Shown here: in pieces, positions 1 through 6,737 of the stretch | Layout: each line of letters begins with the position of its first letter | Position numbering within the stretch: the stretch's first letter is position 1 | IMG/VR virus record: IMGVR_UViG_2684622620_000011 | Location: 1 to 9,345 of that record | Origin: a virus | Taxonomy: Duplodnaviria > Heunggongvirae > Uroviricota > Caudoviricetes | Direction: 5' to 3' (one strand) | DNA: 9,345 nucleotides | The notes under the pieces: generated by a model | What the model saw: the letters and a program-made list of their open reading frames with translations, nothing else | Told to the model about the DNA's origin: nothing | Databases searched by the model: none | Translations under genes and position numbers: made by a program

Positions 1-25
1 TGAACCGCCCCGGGTTTCCTGGAGA
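1..25. repeat. Terminal inverted repeat of the left IS copy (orfB-proximal end)
   Basis: TGAACCGCCCCGGGTTTCCTGGAGA matches the reverse complement of 1286..1310 at about 22 of 25 positions; positions 1-13 and 17-25 are identical. Confidence 0.8.
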
Positions 26-42
26 GTGTTTTATCTGTGAAC

Positions 43-933
43 TCAGGCTGCCAGATCATCGTTTCCGATGGAAGCATAATAAGCTTTTTCTGCTTCTGCC
101 GGAGGAGTATGGCCCAGCCTTCCCAGCAATCGTCGATTGTTATACCAGTCCACCCACGTTAGTGTGGCCAGTTCCACTTCTGCACGGTTTTTCCAGCTCT
201 TACGGTGTATTACCTCCGCTTTGTAAAGACCATTGATGCTCTCAGCCATCGCGTTGTCATACGAGTCGCCTGTACTCCCTGTTGATGCCAGTAATCCGGC
301 TTCTTTTAGTCGCTCCGTATAGGCCAGTGACACATACTGAGAGCCTTTATCGCTGTGATGGATGGTGCCAGACGGACGACGGGCCCACAACGCCTGCTCC
401 AGCGCATCCAGCACGAATGTCGTTTCCATAGACGATGAGACCCGCCACCCCACGATGTATCCGGCAAACACATCAATGATAAACGCCACATAGACGAAGC
501 CCTGCCATGTGCTGACGTAAGTAAAATCAGCCACCCACAGCTGGTCAGGTCGTTCTGCCACGAACTGACGGTTTACGCGGTCGCCTGCGGCAACGGCTTT
601 CCGGCTGATGGTCGTACGGACCTTTTTACCCCGGAGAACACCGGCAAGTCCCATAACCGCCATGAGACGTGCCACTGTACATCTGGCCACCCTGATTCCT
701 TCCCGTAACAACTGACGCCAGACTTTACGCACACCGTACACCTGATGATTTTCATCGTATACGCGCTGTATCTCTCTCTTCAGCCAGTCGTCGTGCTGCG
801 CACGGGCACTGCGTTTATCCGGATGATGTCGCTGTTGCTGACAATGGTAATACGTTGACGGGGCAATATGCAGTTCGCTGCATACCGGTCCGACCCCGTA
901 CTGCTCACGCAGCTTATCCAGCAGTGGCATCAT
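43..933 (-). CDS. IS3-family transposase OrfB (DDE/integrase catalytic domain), 296 aa
   Basis: ATG start overlaps the orfA stop by 4 nt (ATGA). Protein shows integrase-core hallmarks (W..DFTY, HSD.GSQY, ...[10 protein letters not shown]). Identical to the ORF at 8413..9303. Confidence 0.9.
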
Positions 934-1256
934 TTTTTCCAGAGGCGGTCGAACTCCGCCTTCGCAAAATAAGCGGAAGCCTGGCGAAGGATATCGTTAC
1001 TGCGGCGCAGTTCACGATTTTCACGTTCCAGCTCTTTCAGACGCTGACGTTCAGCGCTGGTGAGCCCACCATCACCGCCCCCGGTATCCCGCTCATGCTG
1101 GCGAACCCAGACACGCAGAGTCTCCGGCGTACAGCCAATCTTTGGGGCAATGGAACAAATTGCCGCCCACTGTGAGTCATATTCATCCTGACTTTCCAGA
1201 ACCATACGAATCGCCCGCTGACGGACTTCGGGGGAAAAACGAGTATTTTTAGTCAT
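930..1256 (-). CDS. IS3-family transposase OrfA (HTH and leucine-zipper DNA-binding subunit), 108 aa
   Basis: Starts [22 protein letters not shown]... with a helix-turn-helix region and a heptad Leu repeat ([18 protein letters not shown]). Identical to the ORF at 8090..8416. Confidence 0.9.
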
Positions 1257-1285
1257 CCTGTTTACCTCTTTCTCAGGGAGTTTAG

Positions 1286-1310
1286 TCTCCAGGATTTCCG
1301 GGGCGGTTCA
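1286..1310. repeat. Terminal inverted repeat of the left IS copy (orfA-proximal end)
   Basis: Reverse complement reads TGAACCGCCCCGGAAATCCTGGAGA, an imperfect match to 1..25. Confidence 0.8.
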
Positions 1311-1619
1311 AATTGAAGTAAGTTCATTTTTAGGTGAAGGAGTGATATCTTCGCTTCCAAAGATCATATCTTGGTATTGTGCCCAATTTTGGCGAATTTC
1401 GAAATACATATCAACATCATAATCCTGCCCTCTTAGTTCATCATCTGAAGATATATTCAATGTCTTTTTGAGACCGATGATGTTAAAGATCCACTTCTTA
1501 CCACCTTTAATGAAGTATGCCCCAGTATATGCCTCTTCATCTGGTACAGCCTCATAACCTAAATTTAATGCTAATTGTATCTGTTCTGCTAATGTAAAAG
1601 GCTCTTTCCATCCACTCAT
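1308..1619 (-). CDS. Hypothetical small protein (103 aa as read), probably 3'-truncated by the IS insertion
   Basis: ATG at 1619..1617 with an AGGTAGGT Shine-Dalgarno-like sequence upstream. The in-frame stop TGA is formed by the last 3 nt of the IS terminus (1308..1310), so the native C-terminus is probably missing. AT-rich codon usage like the neighbouring 221-aa gene. No recognisable domain. Confidence 0.55.
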   Translation of the reverse strand: MSGWKEPFTLAEQIQLALNLGYEAVPDEEAYTGAYFIKGGKKWIFNIIGLKKTLNISSDDELRGQDYDVDMYFEIRQNWAQYQDMIFGSEDITPSPKNELTSI

Positions 1620-1707
1620 AGCTTATTACCTACCTGTGAACCTGTTTGCTGCATGAAAAACAATATAATAAAGCGTTATTGAAGACTATGATCCAAGTAA
1701 ATTTAAT

Positions 1708-1730
1708 CAAATACGTTTATAACGTATTTG
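1708..1730. promoter_or_regulatory. Perfect 10-bp inverted repeat with a 3-bp spacer (CAAATACGTT-TAT-AACGTATTTG), candidate operator
   Basis: Arms 1708..1717 and 1721..1730 are exact reverse complements. It lies about 90 nt upstream of the 1619 start codon, in the 320-bp intergenic region between the two AT-rich genes. Confidence 0.35.
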
Positions 1731-1939
1731 CCTAAACAACTTCCAACGTATGATCCGCTTCTCGCTCTCAGCAGACCTTTATCTGCAGGTGCTTGTCTGC
1801 TGTGTTCCAGAAGCAGATATTATTATATAACTCTTTAACCCATGTATGACAAAATATTCTTGGAGCTTATTAAAACTTCATACGTCTAAATCACCTCTTC
1901 ATTAGTGAATCAATAATTGTATAGTTAAAATGTAACACT

Positions 1940-2605
1940 TTATTTTTTATGATTAACTTGCTTTGCTAAAGAGCTATAAATCATATCAACCAAAACATAT
2001 TTTTCGCATTCCCAAGGTTCACTAATAGATGGGTTTACTAAGTCTGGCTTCCCCCCCATTAGTGTATGAACATGCGAATAAATACCTATTCTTTCTGCGA
2101 GCTGCATTATTTTTATTTGATGTTCTGGTGGGAGCATTTTGTTTTTAAACCATGTTGTAAATATATGCTTGGTAAGTTCCTTAGTACAAACAAACCATTC
2201 ACCTTGACGTCTTTCGTTGCTAAATTTTTCATGAAGATAGTTTTCTTTTTCTGAACCACCTGGTTCCAAAGCGTGTAATATTAATTGACCAAATGCACCT
2301 GTCTGCAGGTTAGACAACCTTTTTAGCACATTATTGGAACGCCCTATTTTCACATAAAGTCCCGAGTAAGGGTTATTTTTATCTGAAGAACCGGCCCAAG
2401 TATCAGGCACTTGTAAAATATAATAAATACTACTTACTTTCCCACTCGATACATTATTTGCCCAAATCTGCCATTCTTCCATCCAGCTTTTTGCATCTTC
2501 TCTCGTGTCAAAGGCATGACTTGTATAGTAAAATTCACCAGTATCCAAGAACATATCGAAAACATATTTGCCATTCTCTATAATTCTTAAGTTGTCGGCT
2601 TTCAT
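1940..2605 (-). CDS. T5orf172/MUG113-domain (GIY-YIG superfamily) protein, 221 aa, with N- and C-terminal extensions of unknown function
   Basis: Central motifs IYYIL...GLYVKIGRSNNVLKRLSNLQTG...YLHEKFSNERRQGEWF fit the T5orf172 pattern (G-x-Y-K-I-G, R-x-x-x-L, H-x-x-F...R-x-GEWF). ATG at 2605 with a GAGA-type ribosome-binding site. Gene and flanks are strongly AT-rich compared with the rest of the window. Confidence 0.75.
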   Translation of the reverse strand: MKADNLRIIENGKYVFDMFLDTGEFYYTSHAFDTREDAKSWMEEWQIWANNVSSGKVSSIYYILQVPDTWAGSSDKNNPYSGLYVKIGRSNNVLKRLSNLQTGAFGQLILHALEPGGSEKENYLHEKFSNERRQGEWFVCTKELTKHIFTTWFKNKMLPPEHQIKIMQLAERIGIYSHVHTLMGGKPDLVNPSISEPWECEKYVLVDMIYSSLAKQVNHKK

Positions 2606-2809
2606 GGAAGTTTCTCACAAAGTTACAGGAATATATAAAAACTTTACTACGCTTAGTATATATTACCACCTGATTATGTATTATTTGATTTACACAACTT
2701 ATTGCTAGTAATAACGGTTTTGATGTAATCTTCTCATCCCAAACTAACCTTCAAAATAGATTTAATCTAAATTATATCAAAATATGCTCTCAGTTAAGAT
2801 GGCTTATTT

Positions 2810-3007
2810 TTAATCAGTTAGAGGATCAACCTGATTTTCTCTAATAAGATTTCGTAACGCAGTACGAGCAGCCGCGACTTCTGTCATTCCATTTAGAACC
2901 ACGCTGGAATGCCCTCCTCTAACCCCAAAGACTGTGACCATATCCTCTTCACGGAAGTATTCTGCTTCATACTGAAGGCCATCTTTCTCTACGCGAATAT
3001 ATGACAT
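2810..3007 (-). CDS. Hypothetical small protein, 65 aa
   Basis: ATG at 3007 preceded by GAGG about 6-9 nt upstream. Composition is like the phage backbone, not the AT-rich block. No recognisable motif. Confidence 0.5.
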   Translation of the reverse strand: MSYIRVEKDGLQYEAEYFREEDMVTVFGVRGGHSSVVLNGMTEVAAARTALRNLIRENQVDPLTD

Positions 3008-3633
3008 AACAACCTCATTTTATTATCTTTTGTTTGAATGATATATCCACAAAATAATTTAAGCAATCTCGCCCAAGACGGTACGCCAAGCTTGCCTTGT
3101 AAGTATACTGTAAATATTCCGATAAAACTAATCATTCGCTTTTAGCGCATGTCCAAAAAATGGTTCAGGTATCCTATCGTGCCAATATTCGCTCCTCACT
3201 CATAGCGGCTTTCAGGCAAGTTAACTAGTCCGCTCGGTGCCATATAGAGCCATGGTTATTAACAGCAGGGAATAATTCCACACTGAAATTAAATGTCTAC
3301 CTTTTACAGTAGAAATAGTTCCTCCAGGACACTATCCATTGCCGGGCACAATCACTCGGGGTATAACGATATAAAATATGTTCATGATAGTGCAGGTTCG
3401 TATATTAAGTTCAGCAGCGAAAACATGCCTTACAGGTTTCCGGTTTTGGGAGCGTCGTTACAGGATCCTGTGCATACCGTTCCCATCTGTTGAATTAAAG
3501 GTTTCACAGCCTTTGCCGATATCACCTTTTACCTTGCCTGTGATGCGTTCAGTGCTCAGCGTTGTTTACTGTAGCTCTCGGAACTGATTACAGACCGCGT
3601 CTTAAAAACCAATCCTTACTCTAAAGGGAATTC

Positions 3634-4557
3634 ATGAGATTAAAATACTCAGTACTCTTACTCGCCATTGCCCTTACAGGCTGTGATAACAAAAAAGATG
3701 AGATCGGTTGTTCTTCGGAAATGACCCAATCAGCTCTCATGGATTTATTAAAAAAATCTGCTTATGAAGGACTCTCTGAACAGGTCGATAAATACCCTGA
3801 TGTCACTAATCAGACCAAACGAAGCACACTGGACAAGATCAAACTAGCCGTCTCTGAAATCTCCACAACATCAAGTGACACGGGCAGCACAATGAAAACT
3901 TGTGAAGGGACCGTGACGATGACTCTACCTGCGAACGAGTACATCCAGCTTTCTGATGCTTACCGAAAGAATTTTAATCGTAATCTCGATAAGCAAATGG
4001 AAAATCTGTTTTTGGAGAACAACGCAAACGCCTTTTCAAAACGTATCACCTACACCGTGCAGGCGACCGACGATCAGAAAAACGTTTTTGTAAAAACCTC
4101 TTCTGATAATCCGATATCAGTGGGCGCCGCTTTACTGACATCGCTTTCCATTATCAACCCGATCGTTGAGCAGCAGAAAATCCAGCAGGCTAAGGATGCC
4201 CAACAGAGTCAAATTGAAGCGGAACAACAGGTGCAACTCAGGGCACAGGAACAGGCCAGGTATGAGGCGGAGAAGCAAATAGAGAGGCAGGCACAACTTC
4301 AGCCGCAAAAAGCTGAAAGCCTTGATCAGTCCCGAATGGCATTTGCGAATGCTGACTCTGATTTGAATACAGTCTGGGGCAGGTTAACGCCGGCGAAGAA
4401 AAAAGAGTTGCTGCCTTCTCAGCGTCAGTGGATCAAAACTAAGGATGCTATGTGCGGTAAAGTTTCAATGCAGGGAACAGATGCTGAAGTCAAGAAAATG
4501 GTCGACTGCCAGACGCAAATGACCCTTTCAAGAATCGCTTTCCTCAGAAACCAATAA
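3634..4557 (+). CDS. Lipoprotein with a Q-rich coiled-coil middle and a C-terminal DUF1311/LprI-like domain, 307 aa
   Basis: N-terminus MRLKYSVLLLAIALTGC has a signal peptide and lipobox (LTG-C). C-terminus LLPSQRQWIKTKDAMC...VDCQTQMTLSRIAFL matches the DUF1311 signature (Q-x-x-W-x-x-x-R-D-x-x-C ... C ... T-x-x-R). AAGGGA ribosome-binding site 7-8 nt upstream of the ATG. The only long plus-strand gene in the insert. Confidence 0.8.
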   Translation: MRLKYSVLLLAIALTGCDNKKDEIGCSSEMTQSALMDLLKKSAYEGLSEQVDKYPDVTNQTKRSTLDKIKLAVSEISTTSSDTGSTMKTCEGTVTMTLPANEYIQLSDAYRKNFNRNLDKQMENLFLENNANAFSKRITYTVQATDDQKNVFVKTSSDNPISVGAALLTSLSIINPIVEQQKIQQAKDAQQSQIEAEQQVQLRAQEQARYEAEKQIERQAQLQPQKAESLDQSRMAFANADSDLNTVWGRLTPAKKKELLPSQRQWIKTKDAMCGKVSMQGTDAEVKKMVDCQTQMTLSRIAFLRNQ

Positions 4558-4571
4558 CTGAAGTTTCCTTC

Positions 4572-4605
4572 AAGCTGGCGCCTGGTGTTAACCTGGTGCC
4601 AGCTT
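4572..4605. terminator. Candidate hairpin between the convergent lipoprotein and anti-repressor genes
   Basis: AAGCTGGCGCC...GGTGCCAGCTT forms an 11-bp stem (one G.U pair) with a 12-nt loop containing GTTAAC. No clear U-tract on either strand, so the terminator call is weak. Confidence 0.3.
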
Positions 4606-4734
4606 AGTCATCAAGTACATACGTAACAGTTTTACATGGGCGGTACTTTGACAGAGTATTCGGCCTCGTGCTGGTTGTGACTAAATACCTTTTTAAGCGC
4701 AAATAGAGTATAACCGCGCCAAACATTCAACCTG

Positions 4735-5523
4735 TCAAAATGCTGAATCAGCAACGGATACAACCGACTTTTTCCCCATTACCATCAATTTATCCAGCGT
4801 CATACTTCGCAGGTTGTCGCTGTGGATCACCAGATACCCTGCCCGCTCAGCGATCTCTTTGAAAGCGTCAAACGTCATCAGATGTTCGCCTTTGGCAACA
4901 TGGCGCATCCTGGTCACTTTTCCATTTTTGATAGTGGTGATAAAAGAAAAATCTGGAATGGTTGGCTGATTTTCATCGAGTAGCAGGCAGTGGATGTATT
5001 CAATCGCCTCTAACATTTGCGTCTGTGACAGTTGTTCTATGTGAGAGACGGCGAAGCGTTGATGAATCATGGTGTAGGCATCGGGATACATCATGCCTTT
5101 CTTACCGACCAGCATATTAACGGCATCACGTAAGGGAGTACGGTCATCGGTAGTTGTACTCCGCCTCTCTGGACGCTGTCTAAAATAACAATCTTCCAGC
5201 TTTTCGAAAACTTCCCAGGCCTGTTCTGTTTCCAGCATTTTGGCATGGCGAGCTGCGCCGCGTTCTGTCCAGAGAATGAGGGATCGGGTATGTTTAGCAA
5301 CTGACTGACTATCTGTCAGTCTGTTTTTGAAGTCGCGTAATTCATTACCTTCCAGCTTAAAAAAATGCTTTCCTACGACAAATCTGGCGATGTTGCGCTT
5401 GAAGTTTTGCTGGATACCATTTACTTCCGTGCCATACAAACTGGCAAGCAATTCAGTAGTGATGACGGGAAGTTGGTTATGATGTAGCGGAGAAAGGGAT
5501 TCCGCAGATATTTGGATTGTCAT
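4735..5523 (-). CDS. Phage anti-repressor-like regulatory protein (ORF6N/KilA-type N-terminal domain), about 262 aa
   Basis: The N-terminal region (...ELLASLYGTEVNGIQQNFKRNIARFVVGKHFFKLEGNELRDF...WTERGAARHAKML...) resembles ORF6N-type anti-repressor domains. Start chosen at ATG 5523 (MTIQ...), which has GTGAGG 8 nt upstream. The ORF track extends the frame to 5571, but that start is a TTG; another ATG at 5553 has poorer spacing. Confidence 0.65.
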   Translation of the reverse strand: MTIQISAESLSPLHHNQLPVITTELLASLYGTEVNGIQQNFKRNIARFVVGKHFFKLEGNELRDFKNRLTDSQSVAKHTRSLILWTERGAARHAKMLETEQAWEVFEKLEDCYFRQRPERRSTTTDDRTPLRDAVNMLVGKKGMMYPDAYTMIHQRFAVSHIEQLSQTQMLEAIEYIHCLLLDENQPTIPDFSFITTIKNGKVTRMRHVAKGEHLMTFDAFKEIAERAGYLVIHSDNLRSMTLDKLMVMGKKSVVSVADSAF

Positions 5524-5683
5524 CGCAGTGGCCTCACTTAGTGTTTTTTTCATCACCACCAGCGACGCCAATCATCTGGTGGTGAACTGTGCAGGGTTGG
5601 CGTAACCGGCTAAGTGAACCCGGCGCTTCCGCAGAAGCCCCCACACAGCCCACCATAATGCGAATGTGGCCGTGCCTAACACA

Positions 5684-5707
5684 TAAAAAAACCGCTAACG
5701 CGGCTAT
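5684..5707 (-). terminator. Candidate rho-independent terminator (minus strand) downstream of the small-gene operon
   Basis: Minus strand reads AGCCGCGTTAGCGG followed by TTTTTTT. The stem is short (4 G-C pairs plus possible G.U/A-U) with a 4-nt loop and a T7 tract, about 100 nt after the stop of the 5796..6017 ORF. Confidence 0.3.
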
Positions 5708-5795
5708 GCGTCACTTAGATATCCGGGACGCCAATCCCGGCAACCGATTTTGCGGCTGCGCGGAAACTATAGCCCCGGGCTTTTTCTAAGTCAAT

Positions 5796-6017
5796 TCAAT
5801 CAACTTCAAACCTCCGGTGTTCACATTCCATACACTCAACGGGAACATCATCGCGATGCAAGTCCACATATCCGACCCGCTTATACAACTCAATAATGTC
5901 CGGTAACGTGACCAGATGTTTTTCCGGTTCCAACACCTCAGCCCTGGTTACTTTGTAATCTGAAATATAGAGCACTATCCGCCCGTTCCGTGGTAACTCC
6001 AGTTTATCGCCAAACAT
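5796..6017 (-). CDS. Hypothetical small phage protein, 73 aa
   Basis: ATG at 6017 with GGAGGGAAAGGA Shine-Dalgarno sequence immediately upstream. Last gene of the minus-strand operon. No recognisable domain; C-terminus has a CxxC (CMEC) pair. Confidence 0.6.
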   Translation of the reverse strand: MFGDKLELPRNGRIVLYISDYKVTRAEVLEPEKHLVTLPDIIELYKRVGYVDLHRDDVPVECMECEHRRFEVD

Positions 6018-6091
6018 GTCCTTTCCCTCCGGGAAACCAATGATATTGACGATATTACACCCACAAAGATTCGTTTTACGTCACTCCGCAA

Positions 6092-6208
6092 TCACCATAC
6101 ATACGTACCAATCCGTACATTCCCACCACAAAAATGGCATTCGGCGGGCACTGGTAATGGATTTTTAACGCGTGCTATTGCCTTGCGACGTATTTTCAAT
6201 TCACTCAT
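6092..6208 (-). CDS. Possible unannotated small ORF, 38 aa (MSELKIRRKAIARVKNPLPVPAECHFCGGNVRIGTYVW)
   Basis: ATG at 6208..6206 overlaps the stop of the upstream ORF (ATGA) and is preceded by GGGAGG 5 nt upstream. Below the 60-aa cutoff of the ORF track. Contains one CxxC pair. Translated by hand. Confidence 0.35.
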   Translation of the reverse strand: MSELKIRRKAIARVKNPLPVPAECHFCGGNVRIGTYVW

Positions 6209-6429
6209 ACAGCCTCCCTGCTCTCAAACGGGCGAATATTGGTTGGTTCTCCACACGGAATGGCCCAACCCAGCCAGGTAAATATTTTCAGATCACACAT
6301 CGCGTCATACCGTTCGCCCGGATTCACATCCACCATGCTGCAGGCAATTTCATATTGTTCACCATTATCAGTCAGTGCGATCTGGTCATTAATAAACCGG
6401 GGCACAAATGCAAGAAAAAGCTCTTTCAT
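6205..6429 (-). CDS. Hypothetical small phage protein, 74 aa
   Basis: ATG at 6429 with GGAGGA Shine-Dalgarno sequence; ATGA overlap with the upstream gene, consistent with translational coupling. Confidence 0.6.
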   Translation of the reverse strand: MKELFLAFVPRFINDQIALTDNGEQYEIACSMVDVNPGERYDAMCDLKIFTWLGWAIPCGEPTNIRPFESREAV

Positions 6430-6737
6430 GAAATCCTCCGCTCAAAATAAACAAACTGATTCACCGCTCCGATCGGCATTTCGAGTTTTTCCGCGATATC
6501 CTGGCGATTAATACCCGACTGATGTAATTCCCTTGCCAGCTCGACATCTTCCTGTAGGTATTTCGCTGACTGGTGATAATTACCCCGCAGATACATACAG
6601 ATTTTCAGCTCGCGCGCTTTTGTGCGTACCGACGCAGCGGTTCTGCCAATAAGCTGCCCTATACTTTCAACTGTCATGCTGCCTGCACATTGTTTGATGA
6701 TTACGACTTCCGCACGCACCCACCGTTTGTATTTCAT
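6426..6737 (-). CDS. Hypothetical phage protein, 103 aa, possibly DNA-binding (two helix-turn-helix-like segments)
   Basis: ATG at 6737 with GGAG upstream; ATGA overlap with the upstream gene. Segments SIGQLIGRTAASVRTKAREL and NRQDIAEKLEMPIGAVNQFV look HTH-like by eye only. Confidence 0.55.
   Translation of the reverse strand: MKYKRWVRAEVVIIKQCAGSMTVESIGQLIGRTAASVRTKARELKICMYLRGNYHQSAKYLQEDVELARELHQSGINRQDIAEKLEMPIGAVNQFVYFERRIS

What the first reader, a model, noticed from the sequence alone, without database searches (positions are those of the whole stretch)
3008..3633. Unexplained 626-bp non-coding gap in an otherwise compact phage region
No ORF of 60 aa or more with a credible start is present on either strand (the two plus-strand ORFs at 3293..3587 overlap each other and lack ribosome-binding sites). 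Phage genomes are usually tightly packed, so this gap could hold the promoter and long 5' UTR of the lipoprotein gene, a decayed gene remnant, or a small RNA.
Basis: seen in the sequence. Interest (0 to 1): 0.35.

Follow-up and report, generated by a model that had tools for sequence, protein, structure and literature searches.

The report
Flagellar sigma-28 promoter before prophage lipoprotein
The 626-bp gene-free stretch is a patchwork spacer between two back-to-back prophage genes, but its right end carries a conserved promoter of the kind read by the flagellar sigma factor FliA, which would link a phage-borne lipoprotein to the host's motility programme.

Summary
The gap is real. It runs 3008-3633, between a 65-aa gene on the minus strand and an LprI/DUF1311 lipoprotein gene on the plus strand, and no E. 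coli genome annotates it. I found no pseudogene: six-frame translation gave no protein hit. I found no Rfam family, no covariation and no conserved ORF. The gap is a mosaic of three parts.

- **3008-3208:** travels with the left gene.
- **About 3209-3404:** filler seen only in E. coli prophages.
- **3405-3633:** the leader of a mobile cassette (3405-4606) shared by prophages, Klebsiella phage-plasmids and chromosomes of several Enterobacterales.

The one strong feature sits at 3496-3522: TAAAGGTT-N11-GCCGATAT. It has 2 mismatches to the sigma-28 (FliA) consensus. It scores 20.8 bits on a matrix built from 52 ChIP-mapped E. coli FliA sites, and no random window reached that score. In 33 distinct relatives the two boxes are nearly invariant while the spacer and flanks drift. 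The motif keeps its distance of about 111 nt from the ATG even in Pantoea and Erwinia copies whose flanks cannot be aligned.

The best reading is a FliA-type promoter with a roughly 104-nt leader driving the lipoprotein gene. This is predicted, not shown. It is a new member of a known kind, comparable to flxA.

The parts
2810..3007 (-). Left flanking gene, a 65-aa hypothetical protein. It has no Pfam, PHROG or NCBIfam match.
   Evidence: (annotated as WP_021560858.1)
3008..3208 (-). Upstream (leader/promoter) region that travels with the 65-aa gene. A weak sigma-70 candidate, TTGCTT-N17-TATCAT, has its -35 at 3066-3061 and its -10 at 3043-3038.
   Evidence: The stretch 3008-3103 is 81% identical next to the homologous gene in E. 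coli S40-type prophages, where the far neighbour is a different gene (DUF4145). A local alignment extends the homology at about 70% to 3208. The sigma-70 boxes were read by eye from the alignment. They were not reported by the consensus scan, so they are an inference.
3209..3404 (.). Filler or junction DNA with no detectable feature. Recombination or insertion breakpoints fall at 3190, 3233, 3361 (an IS1 insertion in one strain) and 3405.
   Evidence: This stretch is found only in closely related E. coli prophages. About 413 genomes share 3233-3633 at 98%. It has no match in the phage or plasmid collections, no protein similarity and no Rfam hit.
3405..3495 (+). Distal part of the mobile LprI cassette. 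It contains a decayed palindrome at 3419-3441.
   Evidence: Homology to Klebsiella/Raoultella phage-plasmids, Citrobacter, Yersinia and Pseudescherichia begins at 3403-3405. Only 10% of columns are invariant. The palindrome is a perfect 13-bp stem in L006 (-24.5 kcal/mol, z -5.2) and is kept with altered stem sequences in most lineages. It is not better than shuffles in the window (z -0.04), is deleted in L011 and is absent in L036.
3496..3522 (+). Predicted sigma-28 (FliA) promoter: -35 TAAAGGTT (3496-3503), 11-nt spacer, -10 GCCGATAT (3515-3522).
   Evidence: The site has 2 mismatches to the consensus TAAAGTTT-N11-GCCGATAA (consensus from PMC2859248). The chance expectation in the window is 0.01. 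It scores 20.8 bits on a matrix of 52 ChIP-seq FliA sites from PMC4183435, against a maximum of 18.1 in 200 random windows. In 33 distinct relatives the -35 is 7/8 invariant and the -10 is 6/8 invariant, against 2/11 for the spacer. The motif is kept at 111-115 nt from the ATG in Pantoea and Erwinia homologues whose flanks cannot be aligned. It is the only hit of at least 17.6 bits in 310 kb of fetched loci.
3530..3633 (+). Predicted 5' untranslated leader of the lipoprotein mRNA (about 104 nt). The Shine-Dalgarno sequence AAGGGA lies at 3624-3629.
   Evidence: The start point is inferred from the usual 7-9 nt distance downstream of a -10 box and has not been mapped. Indels of 1, 4 and 7 nt among relatives exclude coding. 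The fold z-score is -0.76. Only 1 of 38 predicted pairs shows a compensatory change. The block TAAAGGGAAYTYATG is invariant.
3634..4557 (+). LprI/DUF1311-family lipoprotein gene (307 aa, lipobox LTGC), the gene served by the promoter.
   Evidence: Pfam PF07007 matches at residues 225-304, and phrog_5094 matches. An AlphaFold model with pLDDT 85.6 shows an NTF2-like domain, a long helix and a DUF1311 bundle, the last matching 3gi7 with probability 1.0.
4573..4604 (+). Strong hairpin at the 3' edge of the cassette. It is a candidate transcript end or stabiliser and has no U tract.
   Evidence: Its energy is -28.2 kcal/mol with z -4.6. Cassette homology ends at 4606. The terminator scan did not call it.

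Best explanation
The gap holds no gene and no recognisable RNA gene. It is a mosaic intergenic region between two divergently transcribed prophage accessory genes. The left ~200 bp is the upstream region of the 65-aa gene. The middle ~200 bp is filler at recombination joints. The right 229 bp is the leader of a mobile lipoprotein cassette spanning 3405-4606. Within that leader, 3496-3522 is a promoter for RNA polymerase carrying the flagellar sigma factor FliA (sigma-28). Transcription would start near 3530, run through a ~104-nt unstructured leader, and translate the LprI/DUF1311 lipoprotein from the Shine-Dalgarno sequence at 3624-3629. The lipoprotein would then be made only when the host's flagellar class-3 genes are on, meaning FlhDC is active and FlgM has been exported, whatever the state of the prophage's own lytic/lysogenic switch. 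What is shown: the gap, its mosaic structure, the motif, its score and its conservation. What is inferred: FliA dependence, the start site, and the physiological coupling to motility.
For: The motif has 2 mismatches to the consensus, with a chance expectation of 0.01 per window. Its -35 is identical to that of fliC and its -10 to that of motAB, both in the ChIP-seq table of PMC4183435. Its matrix score of 20.8 bits would rank 8th among the 52 validated sites and exceeds every one of 200 random windows. It is the only site of at least 17.6 bits in 310 kb of related loci on both strands, and it always lies on the gene's strand just upstream. The phylogenetic footprint is clear: both boxes are nearly invariant while the spacer and flanks vary. 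Overall upstream identity equals third-codon-position identity, so the bulk of the leader drifts neutrally while the boxes do not. The motif and its 111-115 nt distance to the ATG persist in Pantoea and Erwinia homologues of 67-75% protein identity, where the rest cannot be aligned. Erwinia has only 1 mismatch. The cassette moves as a unit between different backbones. Negative evidence rules out the alternatives: no protein hit, no Rfam hit, no covariation. There is a precedent: flxA is a FliA-dependent gene with no obvious flagellar role.
Against: There are no expression data, and no paper in the held library links DUF1311/LprI to FliA. In E. coli K-12 most newly found FliA sites were intragenic and many had no measurable effect on the neighbouring gene, so a good motif does not guarantee productive regulation. 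The cassette also sits on Klebsiella and Raoultella phage-plasmids. From general knowledge those hosts normally lack flagella and FliA, so the promoter would be idle there; four of those copies carry ACCGATAT. Two homologues in the 67-75% range lack a good motif (L059, L060), as do the 45-50% identical chromosomal homologues of Proteus and Morganella. About 400 bp of the gap remains without an assigned function.
Confidence: 0.72

Rival explanations
1. The sigma-28-like motif binds FliA holoenzyme weakly or not at all, or is otherwise non-productive. The lipoprotein gene is really transcribed from an unrecognised sigma-70 or activator-dependent promoter elsewhere in the gap, or by read-through. 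The gap is then simply a long regulatory spacer.
For: Many FliA ChIP sites in K-12 have no effect on the adjacent gene. The cassette persists in Klebsiella and Raoultella plasmids, whose hosts are normally non-flagellate (host biology from general knowledge). Conservation further upstream, to -231 or -500 in some lineages, hints at other signals.
Against: The consensus scan found no sigma-70-like site pointing at the gene in 3233-3633. Both boxes and the exact 11-nt spacing are selectively conserved across unalignable sequences, which is hard to explain without function. The score equals that of strong class-3 promoters.
Confidence: 0.15
2. Part of the gap, especially 3209-3495, is the worn-down remnant of a gene that once lay between the two flanking genes.
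For: Stop-free stretches exist on both strands. A minus-strand GTG ORF overlapping 3430-3525 is 31 aa here, 53 aa in Yersinia and Pseudescherichia, and 117 aa in Citrobacter. Overall identity is near neutral.
Against: No frame of 2990-3650 matches any of 5.8 billion protein clusters at E<=0.01. The ORFs differ in length, are frameshifted in Klebsiella, and are interrupted by 1-7 nt indels. There is no DNA match in the phage collection.
Confidence: 0.08
3. The sigma-28 promoter produces a short regulatory RNA from the leader, analogous to the sigma-28-dependent UTR-derived sRNAs of E. coli. Alternatively, the gap encodes another small RNA.
For: A sigma-28 promoter followed by about 100 nt of non-coding sequence resembles the 5'-UTR-derived sRNAs described in PMC10578931 (title and abstract seen). 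A weak terminator-like site lies at 3550-3564. The block 3536-3560 is well conserved among close relatives.
Against: There is no Rfam hit even at E<=10. The fold is no better than shuffles. There is no covariation. Yersinia lacks 7 nt of the putative terminator stem. The leader sequence is not conserved in Pantoea or Erwinia.
Confidence: 0.05

Closest known systems
Class-3 flagellar promoters of E. coli read by sigma-28/FliA (fliC, motAB, tar, flgMN)
   Same: It has the same bipartite motif and 11-nt spacing. Its -35 TAAAGGTT matches fliC and its -10 GCCGATAT matches motAB. Its matrix score falls within the range of the strongest sites.
   Different: It serves a horizontally mobile lipoprotein gene of unknown function, not a flagellar, motor or chemotaxis gene. 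FliA dependence has not been tested.
flxA, a FliA-dependent E. coli gene with no known flagellar role (located in the Qin cryptic prophage, from my own knowledge)
   Same: It is a prophage-borne gene with a consensus-like FliA promoter (TAAAGATT-N11-GCCGATAG, 20.6 bits against 20.8 here) and no obvious role in motility.
   Different: flxA is a small cytoplasmic protein in one cryptic prophage of K-12. Here the promoter and gene form a cassette that has spread across prophages, phage-plasmids and chromosomes of at least eight genera.
Phage 'morons': autonomous accessory cassettes with their own promoter and terminator, such as lambda bor and lom (from general knowledge)
   Same: It is a discrete unit (3405-4606) inserted between backbone genes. 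It moves independently of its neighbours, carries its own predicted promoter, and encodes an envelope lipoprotein.
   Different: The promoter is of the sigma-28 type rather than sigma-70. The 3' hairpin lacks a U tract, so it is not a canonical intrinsic terminator.
Prophage rewiring of host flagella by TldR (PMC13418256)
   Same: Both involve temperate-phage cargo that interacts with the host flagellar programme.
   Different: TldR is an RNA-guided repressor acting on the host's flagellin gene. Here the host's flagellar sigma factor would act on a phage gene. There is no sequence relationship.

Membership tests
sigma-28 (FliA) dependent promoter | -35 element resembling TAAAGTTT | tested here: met
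   TAAAGGTT at 3496-3503 matches 7 of 8 positions and is identical to the fliC -35. It is invariant at 7 of 8 positions in 33 relatives.
sigma-28 (FliA) dependent promoter | -10 element resembling GCCGATAA | tested here: met
   GCCGATAT at 3515-3522 matches 7 of 8 positions and is identical to the motAB -10. The core CCGATA is invariant in 33 relatives.
sigma-28 (FliA) dependent promoter | 11-nt spacer between the two elements | tested here: met
   The spacer is exactly 11 nt in the window and in all relatives that have the motif.
sigma-28 (FliA) dependent promoter | Intergenic position, correct orientation and plausible distance to a downstream gene | tested here: met
   The site is on the plus strand. 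The end of the -10 lies 111 nt from the ATG at 3634, and this distance is 106-115 nt in relatives.
sigma-28 (FliA) dependent promoter | Transcription that depends on FliA (in vivo in a fliA mutant, or in vitro with E-sigma-28), or FliA ChIP occupancy | not testable with these tools
   No expression or binding data exist for this locus. Literature searches found nothing.
Known small RNA or cis-regulatory RNA family (Rfam) | Covariance-model match at or near the gathering score | tested here: not met
   There is no hit in 2950-3700 even at E<=10, apart from two chance eukaryotic lncRNA fragments. There is none upstream of the gene in 12 related loci.
Structured RNA (any) | Fold more stable than shuffles, with compensatory base changes | tested here: not met
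   The leader has z -0.76. The covariation term is +0.21, and 1 of 38 pairs is compensatory.
Pseudogene | Translated similarity to a known protein, interrupted by frameshifts or stops | tested here: not met
   Concatenated six-frame segments of 2990-3650 were searched against 5.8 billion clusters, and none matched at E<=0.01. The search needs shared 5-residue words, so very old remnants could be missed.
Phage moron cassette | Moves as a unit between unrelated backbones | tested here: met
   The same 3403/3405-4606 block lies in E. coli lambdoid prophages, ~110-kb IncFIB phage-plasmids, and Citrobacter, Yersinia and other chromosomes, with different neighbours.
Phage moron cassette | Own intrinsic terminator | tested here: inconclusive
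   A strong hairpin at 4573-4604 marks the cassette's end. It has no U tract and was not called by the scan.

The most novel reading that the evidence does not exclude
The cassette is a mobile, sigma-28-wired envelope module: a phage- and plasmid-borne periplasmic or outer-membrane lipoprotein that the host makes only while it builds flagella. It has spread among motile Enterobacterales because it acts at that moment. For example, it might exclude flagellotropic phages that can infect only motile cells. Alternatively, it might shield peptidoglycan or the envelope from lytic enzymes during flagellar assembly. This would be a case of mobile elements borrowing the host's flagellar sigma factor as a sensor for timed defence.
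Probability: 0.1. Interest if true: 0.7.

Novelty: new member of a known kind. Interest (0 to 1): 0.38.

Why it matters
If the promoter works as predicted, a widely distributed accessory gene would belong to the FliA regulon although it is absent from K-12, where that regulon was defined. The gene occurs in about 8% of complete E. coli genomes, judging by strain names including many pandemic ST131-type isolates, and in several other genera. That would add a horizontally mobile, non-flagellar envelope protein to the motility programme. It would also give a concrete handle (motile versus non-motile state) for finding the function of a DUF1311 lipoprotein that currently has none. For genome annotation, the practical message is that the gap is not a missed gene.

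Tried and rejected
- **DNA searches of the gap.** Megablast and blastn against 50,697 phage records gave no match. The plasmid search matched only the last 229 bp.
- **Rfam.** I ran it at gathering and at E<=10 on the window, and at gathering on 12 related loci. There was nothing in or near the gap. There are no tRNA or tmRNA genes.
- **Pseudogene check.** Six-frame translation against the protein collection gave no hit.
- **Sigma-70 and terminator scan.** Counts were no higher than in shuffles, and no sigma-70-like site pointed at the lipoprotein gene. I also considered sigma-54 and sigma-E by eye and dropped them: the GG of the -24 box is missing, and a GGAACT...TCTTA pair is spaced too closely.
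- **Repeats within the gap.** Only short chance-level matches appeared.
- **Conserved small ORFs.** A minus-strand GTG ORF and a plus-strand ORF ending at 3493 recur in some relatives. Their lengths vary from 31 to 117 aa and they are frameshifted in Klebsiella, so I rejected them as genes.
- **Leader structure.** Neither a single-sequence fold nor an alignment fold gave support.
- **Upstream palindrome as a terminator.** It has no U tract on either strand and is decayed in the window, so its role is left open.
- **Function of the lipoprotein.** PDB sequence search found nothing. The fold search recognised only the DUF1311 domain, plus weak NTF2-like similarity.
- **Literature.** I searched for DUF1311 or LprI with FliA, for the protein accessions, and for ST131 motility transcriptomes. 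Nothing relevant turned up.
- **Not done.** I did not use the last large protein search on the extra upstream block (-500 to -231) found in Yersinia and Klebsiella copies, because that block is absent from the window.

Full report
**Observation.** The window is a 6.7-kb piece of an E. coli lambdoid prophage (1311-8035, 100% identical to strain APEC20/16). It is bracketed by two perfect inverted copies of an IS3-family element. In related genomes the piece lies between the replication genes and the Q antiterminator. Within it, a 65-aa gene runs leftward from 3007 and a 307-aa LprI/DUF1311 lipoprotein gene runs rightward from 3634. Its two ORFs longer than 60 aa (3293-3493 and 3378-3587) overlap and have no ribosome-binding site. 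None of 452 E. coli genomes carrying part of it has an annotation there.

**What the gap is not.** It has no similarity to any of 50,697 phage records at either sensitivity. I concatenated all stop-free segments of at least 20 aa from the six frames of 2990-3650 and searched them against 5.8 billion protein clusters. None scored at E<=0.01. Rfam finds nothing at gathering thresholds, and only two chance fragments at E<=10. It also finds nothing upstream of the homologous gene in 12 related loci. Internal repeats are at chance level. A pseudogene of any recognisable family and a member of any described RNA family are both unsupported.

**Mosaic anatomy.** Comparison with other genomes splits the gap into three parts.
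- *Left part, 3008-3208.* The first 96 bp (3008-3103) are 81% identical next to the homologue of the 65-aa gene in S40-type E. coli prophages, where the gene beyond is a different one. A local alignment carries this homology at about 70% to 3208. In other strains the same small gene sits inside an operon, and only 13 bp upstream are shared. So this stretch is the upstream region of the left gene. A weak sigma-70 candidate (TTGCTT-N17-TATCAT, 3066-3038 on the minus strand) is conserved between the two versions, but this is my reading of the alignment, not a scan result.
- *Right part, 3405-3633.* From 3233 rightward, about 413 E. coli genomes share the sequence at 98% with quite different DNA to the left. 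Other breakpoints lie at 3190 and, through an IS1 insertion, at 3361. From 3403/3405 rightward to 4606 the sequence is 82-90% identical in several places: ~110-kb IncFIB phage-plasmids of Klebsiella and Raoultella, chromosomes of Citrobacter, Yersinia rohdei, Pseudescherichia, Leclercia and Enterobacter, and 30-odd viral contigs.
- *Middle part, about 3209-3404.* This is confined to close E. coli relatives and has no feature I could detect.

The unit 3405-4606 behaves as a mobile cassette: 229 bp of leader, the lipoprotein gene, and 49 bp of trailer ending in a strong hairpin (-28 kcal/mol, z -4.6).

**Selection on the leader.** Averaged over the leader, identity to the window equals identity at third codon positions of the gene. 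For example, it is 83% against 79% for the Klebsiella plasmid and 85% against 87% for Citrobacter. The bulk therefore drifts roughly neutrally. Indels of 1, 4 and 7 nt occur among relatives, and candidate ORFs change length or frame. The leader therefore does not code for protein. An alignment fold of 15 diverse leaders gives a covariation term of +0.21 with 1 compensatory pair of 38. The window's own leader folds no better than shuffles (z -0.76). Nothing supports a structured RNA.

**The one strong signal.** In the alignment two short blocks stay fixed at a constant distance: TAAAG and GCCGATA. Together they read TAAAGGTT-N11-GCCGATAT (3496-3522, plus strand). The consensus for promoters read by the flagellar sigma factor FliA (sigma-28) is TAAAGTTT-N11-GCCGATAA (PMC2859248). 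The evidence has four strands.
- *Match quality.* The match has two mismatches. Dinucleotide-preserving shuffles of the window give 0.01 such matches. The -35 is identical to that of fliC and the -10 to that of motAB in the ChIP-seq catalogue of PMC4183435.
- *Matrix score.* A weight matrix built from all 52 sites of that catalogue scores the window site at 20.8 bits. That would rank eighth among the training sites themselves and is level with flxA and flgKL. It exceeds the best score in every one of 200 random windows (mean 11.7, maximum 18.1).
- *Specificity.* Across 310 kb of fetched loci on both strands, every hit of at least 17.6 bits is this site, always on the gene's strand.
- *Footprint.* In 33 distinct relatives the -35 box is invariant at 7 of 8 positions and the -10 box at 6 of 8. 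The variable positions are the ones that also vary among known FliA promoters. The spacer is invariant at 2 of 11 positions and the 91 bp upstream at 10%.

Most tellingly, Pantoea and Erwinia homologues with only 67-75% protein identity keep the motif although their upstream DNA cannot otherwise be aligned. They have 1-2 mismatches, the same 11-nt spacing, and a distance of 111-115 nt from the ATG (L014, L056, L058, L061). Two homologues in that range have lost it (L059, L060). The 45-50% identical chromosomal homologues of Proteus, Morganella and a third group never show it.

**Mechanism proposed.** RNA polymerase with FliA would start near 3530. This start point is inferred from the usual spacing and has not been mapped. 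The polymerase would transcribe a ~104-nt leader and the lipoprotein gene, whose invariant TAAAGGGAAYTYATG provides the ribosome-binding site. The transcript would probably end at or be stabilised by the 4573-4604 hairpin. Expression would follow the class-3 flagellar programme rather than the prophage's own switch. The protein model (pLDDT 85.6) shows a lipobox, an NTF2-like domain, a roughly 60-residue helix and a DUF1311 helical bundle. Only the last has a confident structural match, so what the protein does at that moment is unknown.

**Caveats.**
- There are no transcript or binding data, and I found no paper connecting DUF1311/LprI with FliA.
- The K-12 study itself shows that many good FliA sites have no measurable effect on neighbouring genes, although those are mostly intragenic and not conserved in this way.
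- The cassette also resides on plasmids of Klebsiella and Raoultella. From general knowledge these are normally non-flagellate, so the promoter would be idle there. Some of those copies read ACCGATAT, a variant also seen in functional E. coli promoters such as ycgR and fliD.
- A palindrome about 95 nt upstream of the predicted start is a perfect 13-bp stem in one Klebsiella plasmid and is kept with altered stems in most lineages. It is decayed in the window and absent in two relatives, and I cannot assign it a role.
- Roughly 200 bp in the middle of the gap remain plain filler on present evidence.

**Comparison and verdict.** The closest known case is flxA, a FliA-dependent gene without a flagellar function. 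By my own knowledge it lies in the Qin cryptic prophage. The cassette's behaviour matches the general idea of phage morons. The sequence meets every sequence-level criterion of a sigma-28 promoter, but the defining functional criterion cannot be tested here. I therefore classify the finding as a new, predicted member of a known kind. It is of moderate interest: the gap itself is ordinary, but it reveals a probable link between a widespread mobile lipoprotein and the host's motility regulon.

Noticed in passing
window 1-1310 and 8036-9345: Two perfect (100%) inverted copies of an IS3-family element, each with an ALIL frameshift pseudoknot, bracket the prophage segment. They cut the replicative helicase gene at 8035. 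No complete E. coli genome contains the whole window. This could be a composite-transposon-like structure, an IS-mediated inversion or an assembly join.
   Followed up: partly
window 5575-5772 (minus strand): Rfam finds C4 antisense RNA, isrK and the c4 a1/b1 target elements just upstream of the ORF6N (antirepressor-like) gene at 4735-5571. This is a P1/P7-type immunity-I module inside a lambdoid prophage, and it explains the other large 'gap' in the window.
   Followed up: no
window 4573-4604: A very stable hairpin (-28 kcal/mol, z -4.6) lies right after the lipoprotein stop codon and ends exactly where cassette homology stops (4606). It has no U tract on either strand and sits between convergent genes.
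   Followed up: partly
window 4626-4705: An 81-nt segment downstream of the lipoprotein gene recurs at 92.6% identity inside the 3' end of an unrelated hypothetical gene a few kb away in related prophages (L001 6125-6205, L002 3971-4051). It may be a recombination linker.
   Followed up: no
window 3419-3441; L006 5010-5038: A palindrome lies upstream of the promoter. It is a perfect 13-bp stem in one Klebsiella plasmid, with its 3-nt loop flipped (CTT to AAG) relative to a sister plasmid. Stem sequences differ but still pair in Enterobacter-type copies. It is decayed in the window.
   Followed up: partly
L010 2000-2270, L015, L011, L005 4850-4950: In Yersinia, Pseudescherichia, Leclercia and Klebsiella-plasmid copies, non-coding conservation upstream of the lipoprotein gene extends to about -500 (80-90% identity) with no consistent ORF and no Rfam hit. 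This block is missing from the window and unexplained.
   Followed up: no
window 3765-3792 and 4091-4118: Two weaker FliA-like matches (13.2 and 11.2 bits) lie inside the lipoprotein coding sequence on the sense strand. They fall within the range expected by chance for a window of this size.
   Followed up: no
window 3634-4557: The PHROG profile for this protein family (phrog_5094) begins at residue 36. Some phage annotations therefore start the gene at an internal Met and lose the lipoprotein signal peptide. The lipobox cysteine (C17) is invariant in 34 homologues.
   Followed up: no
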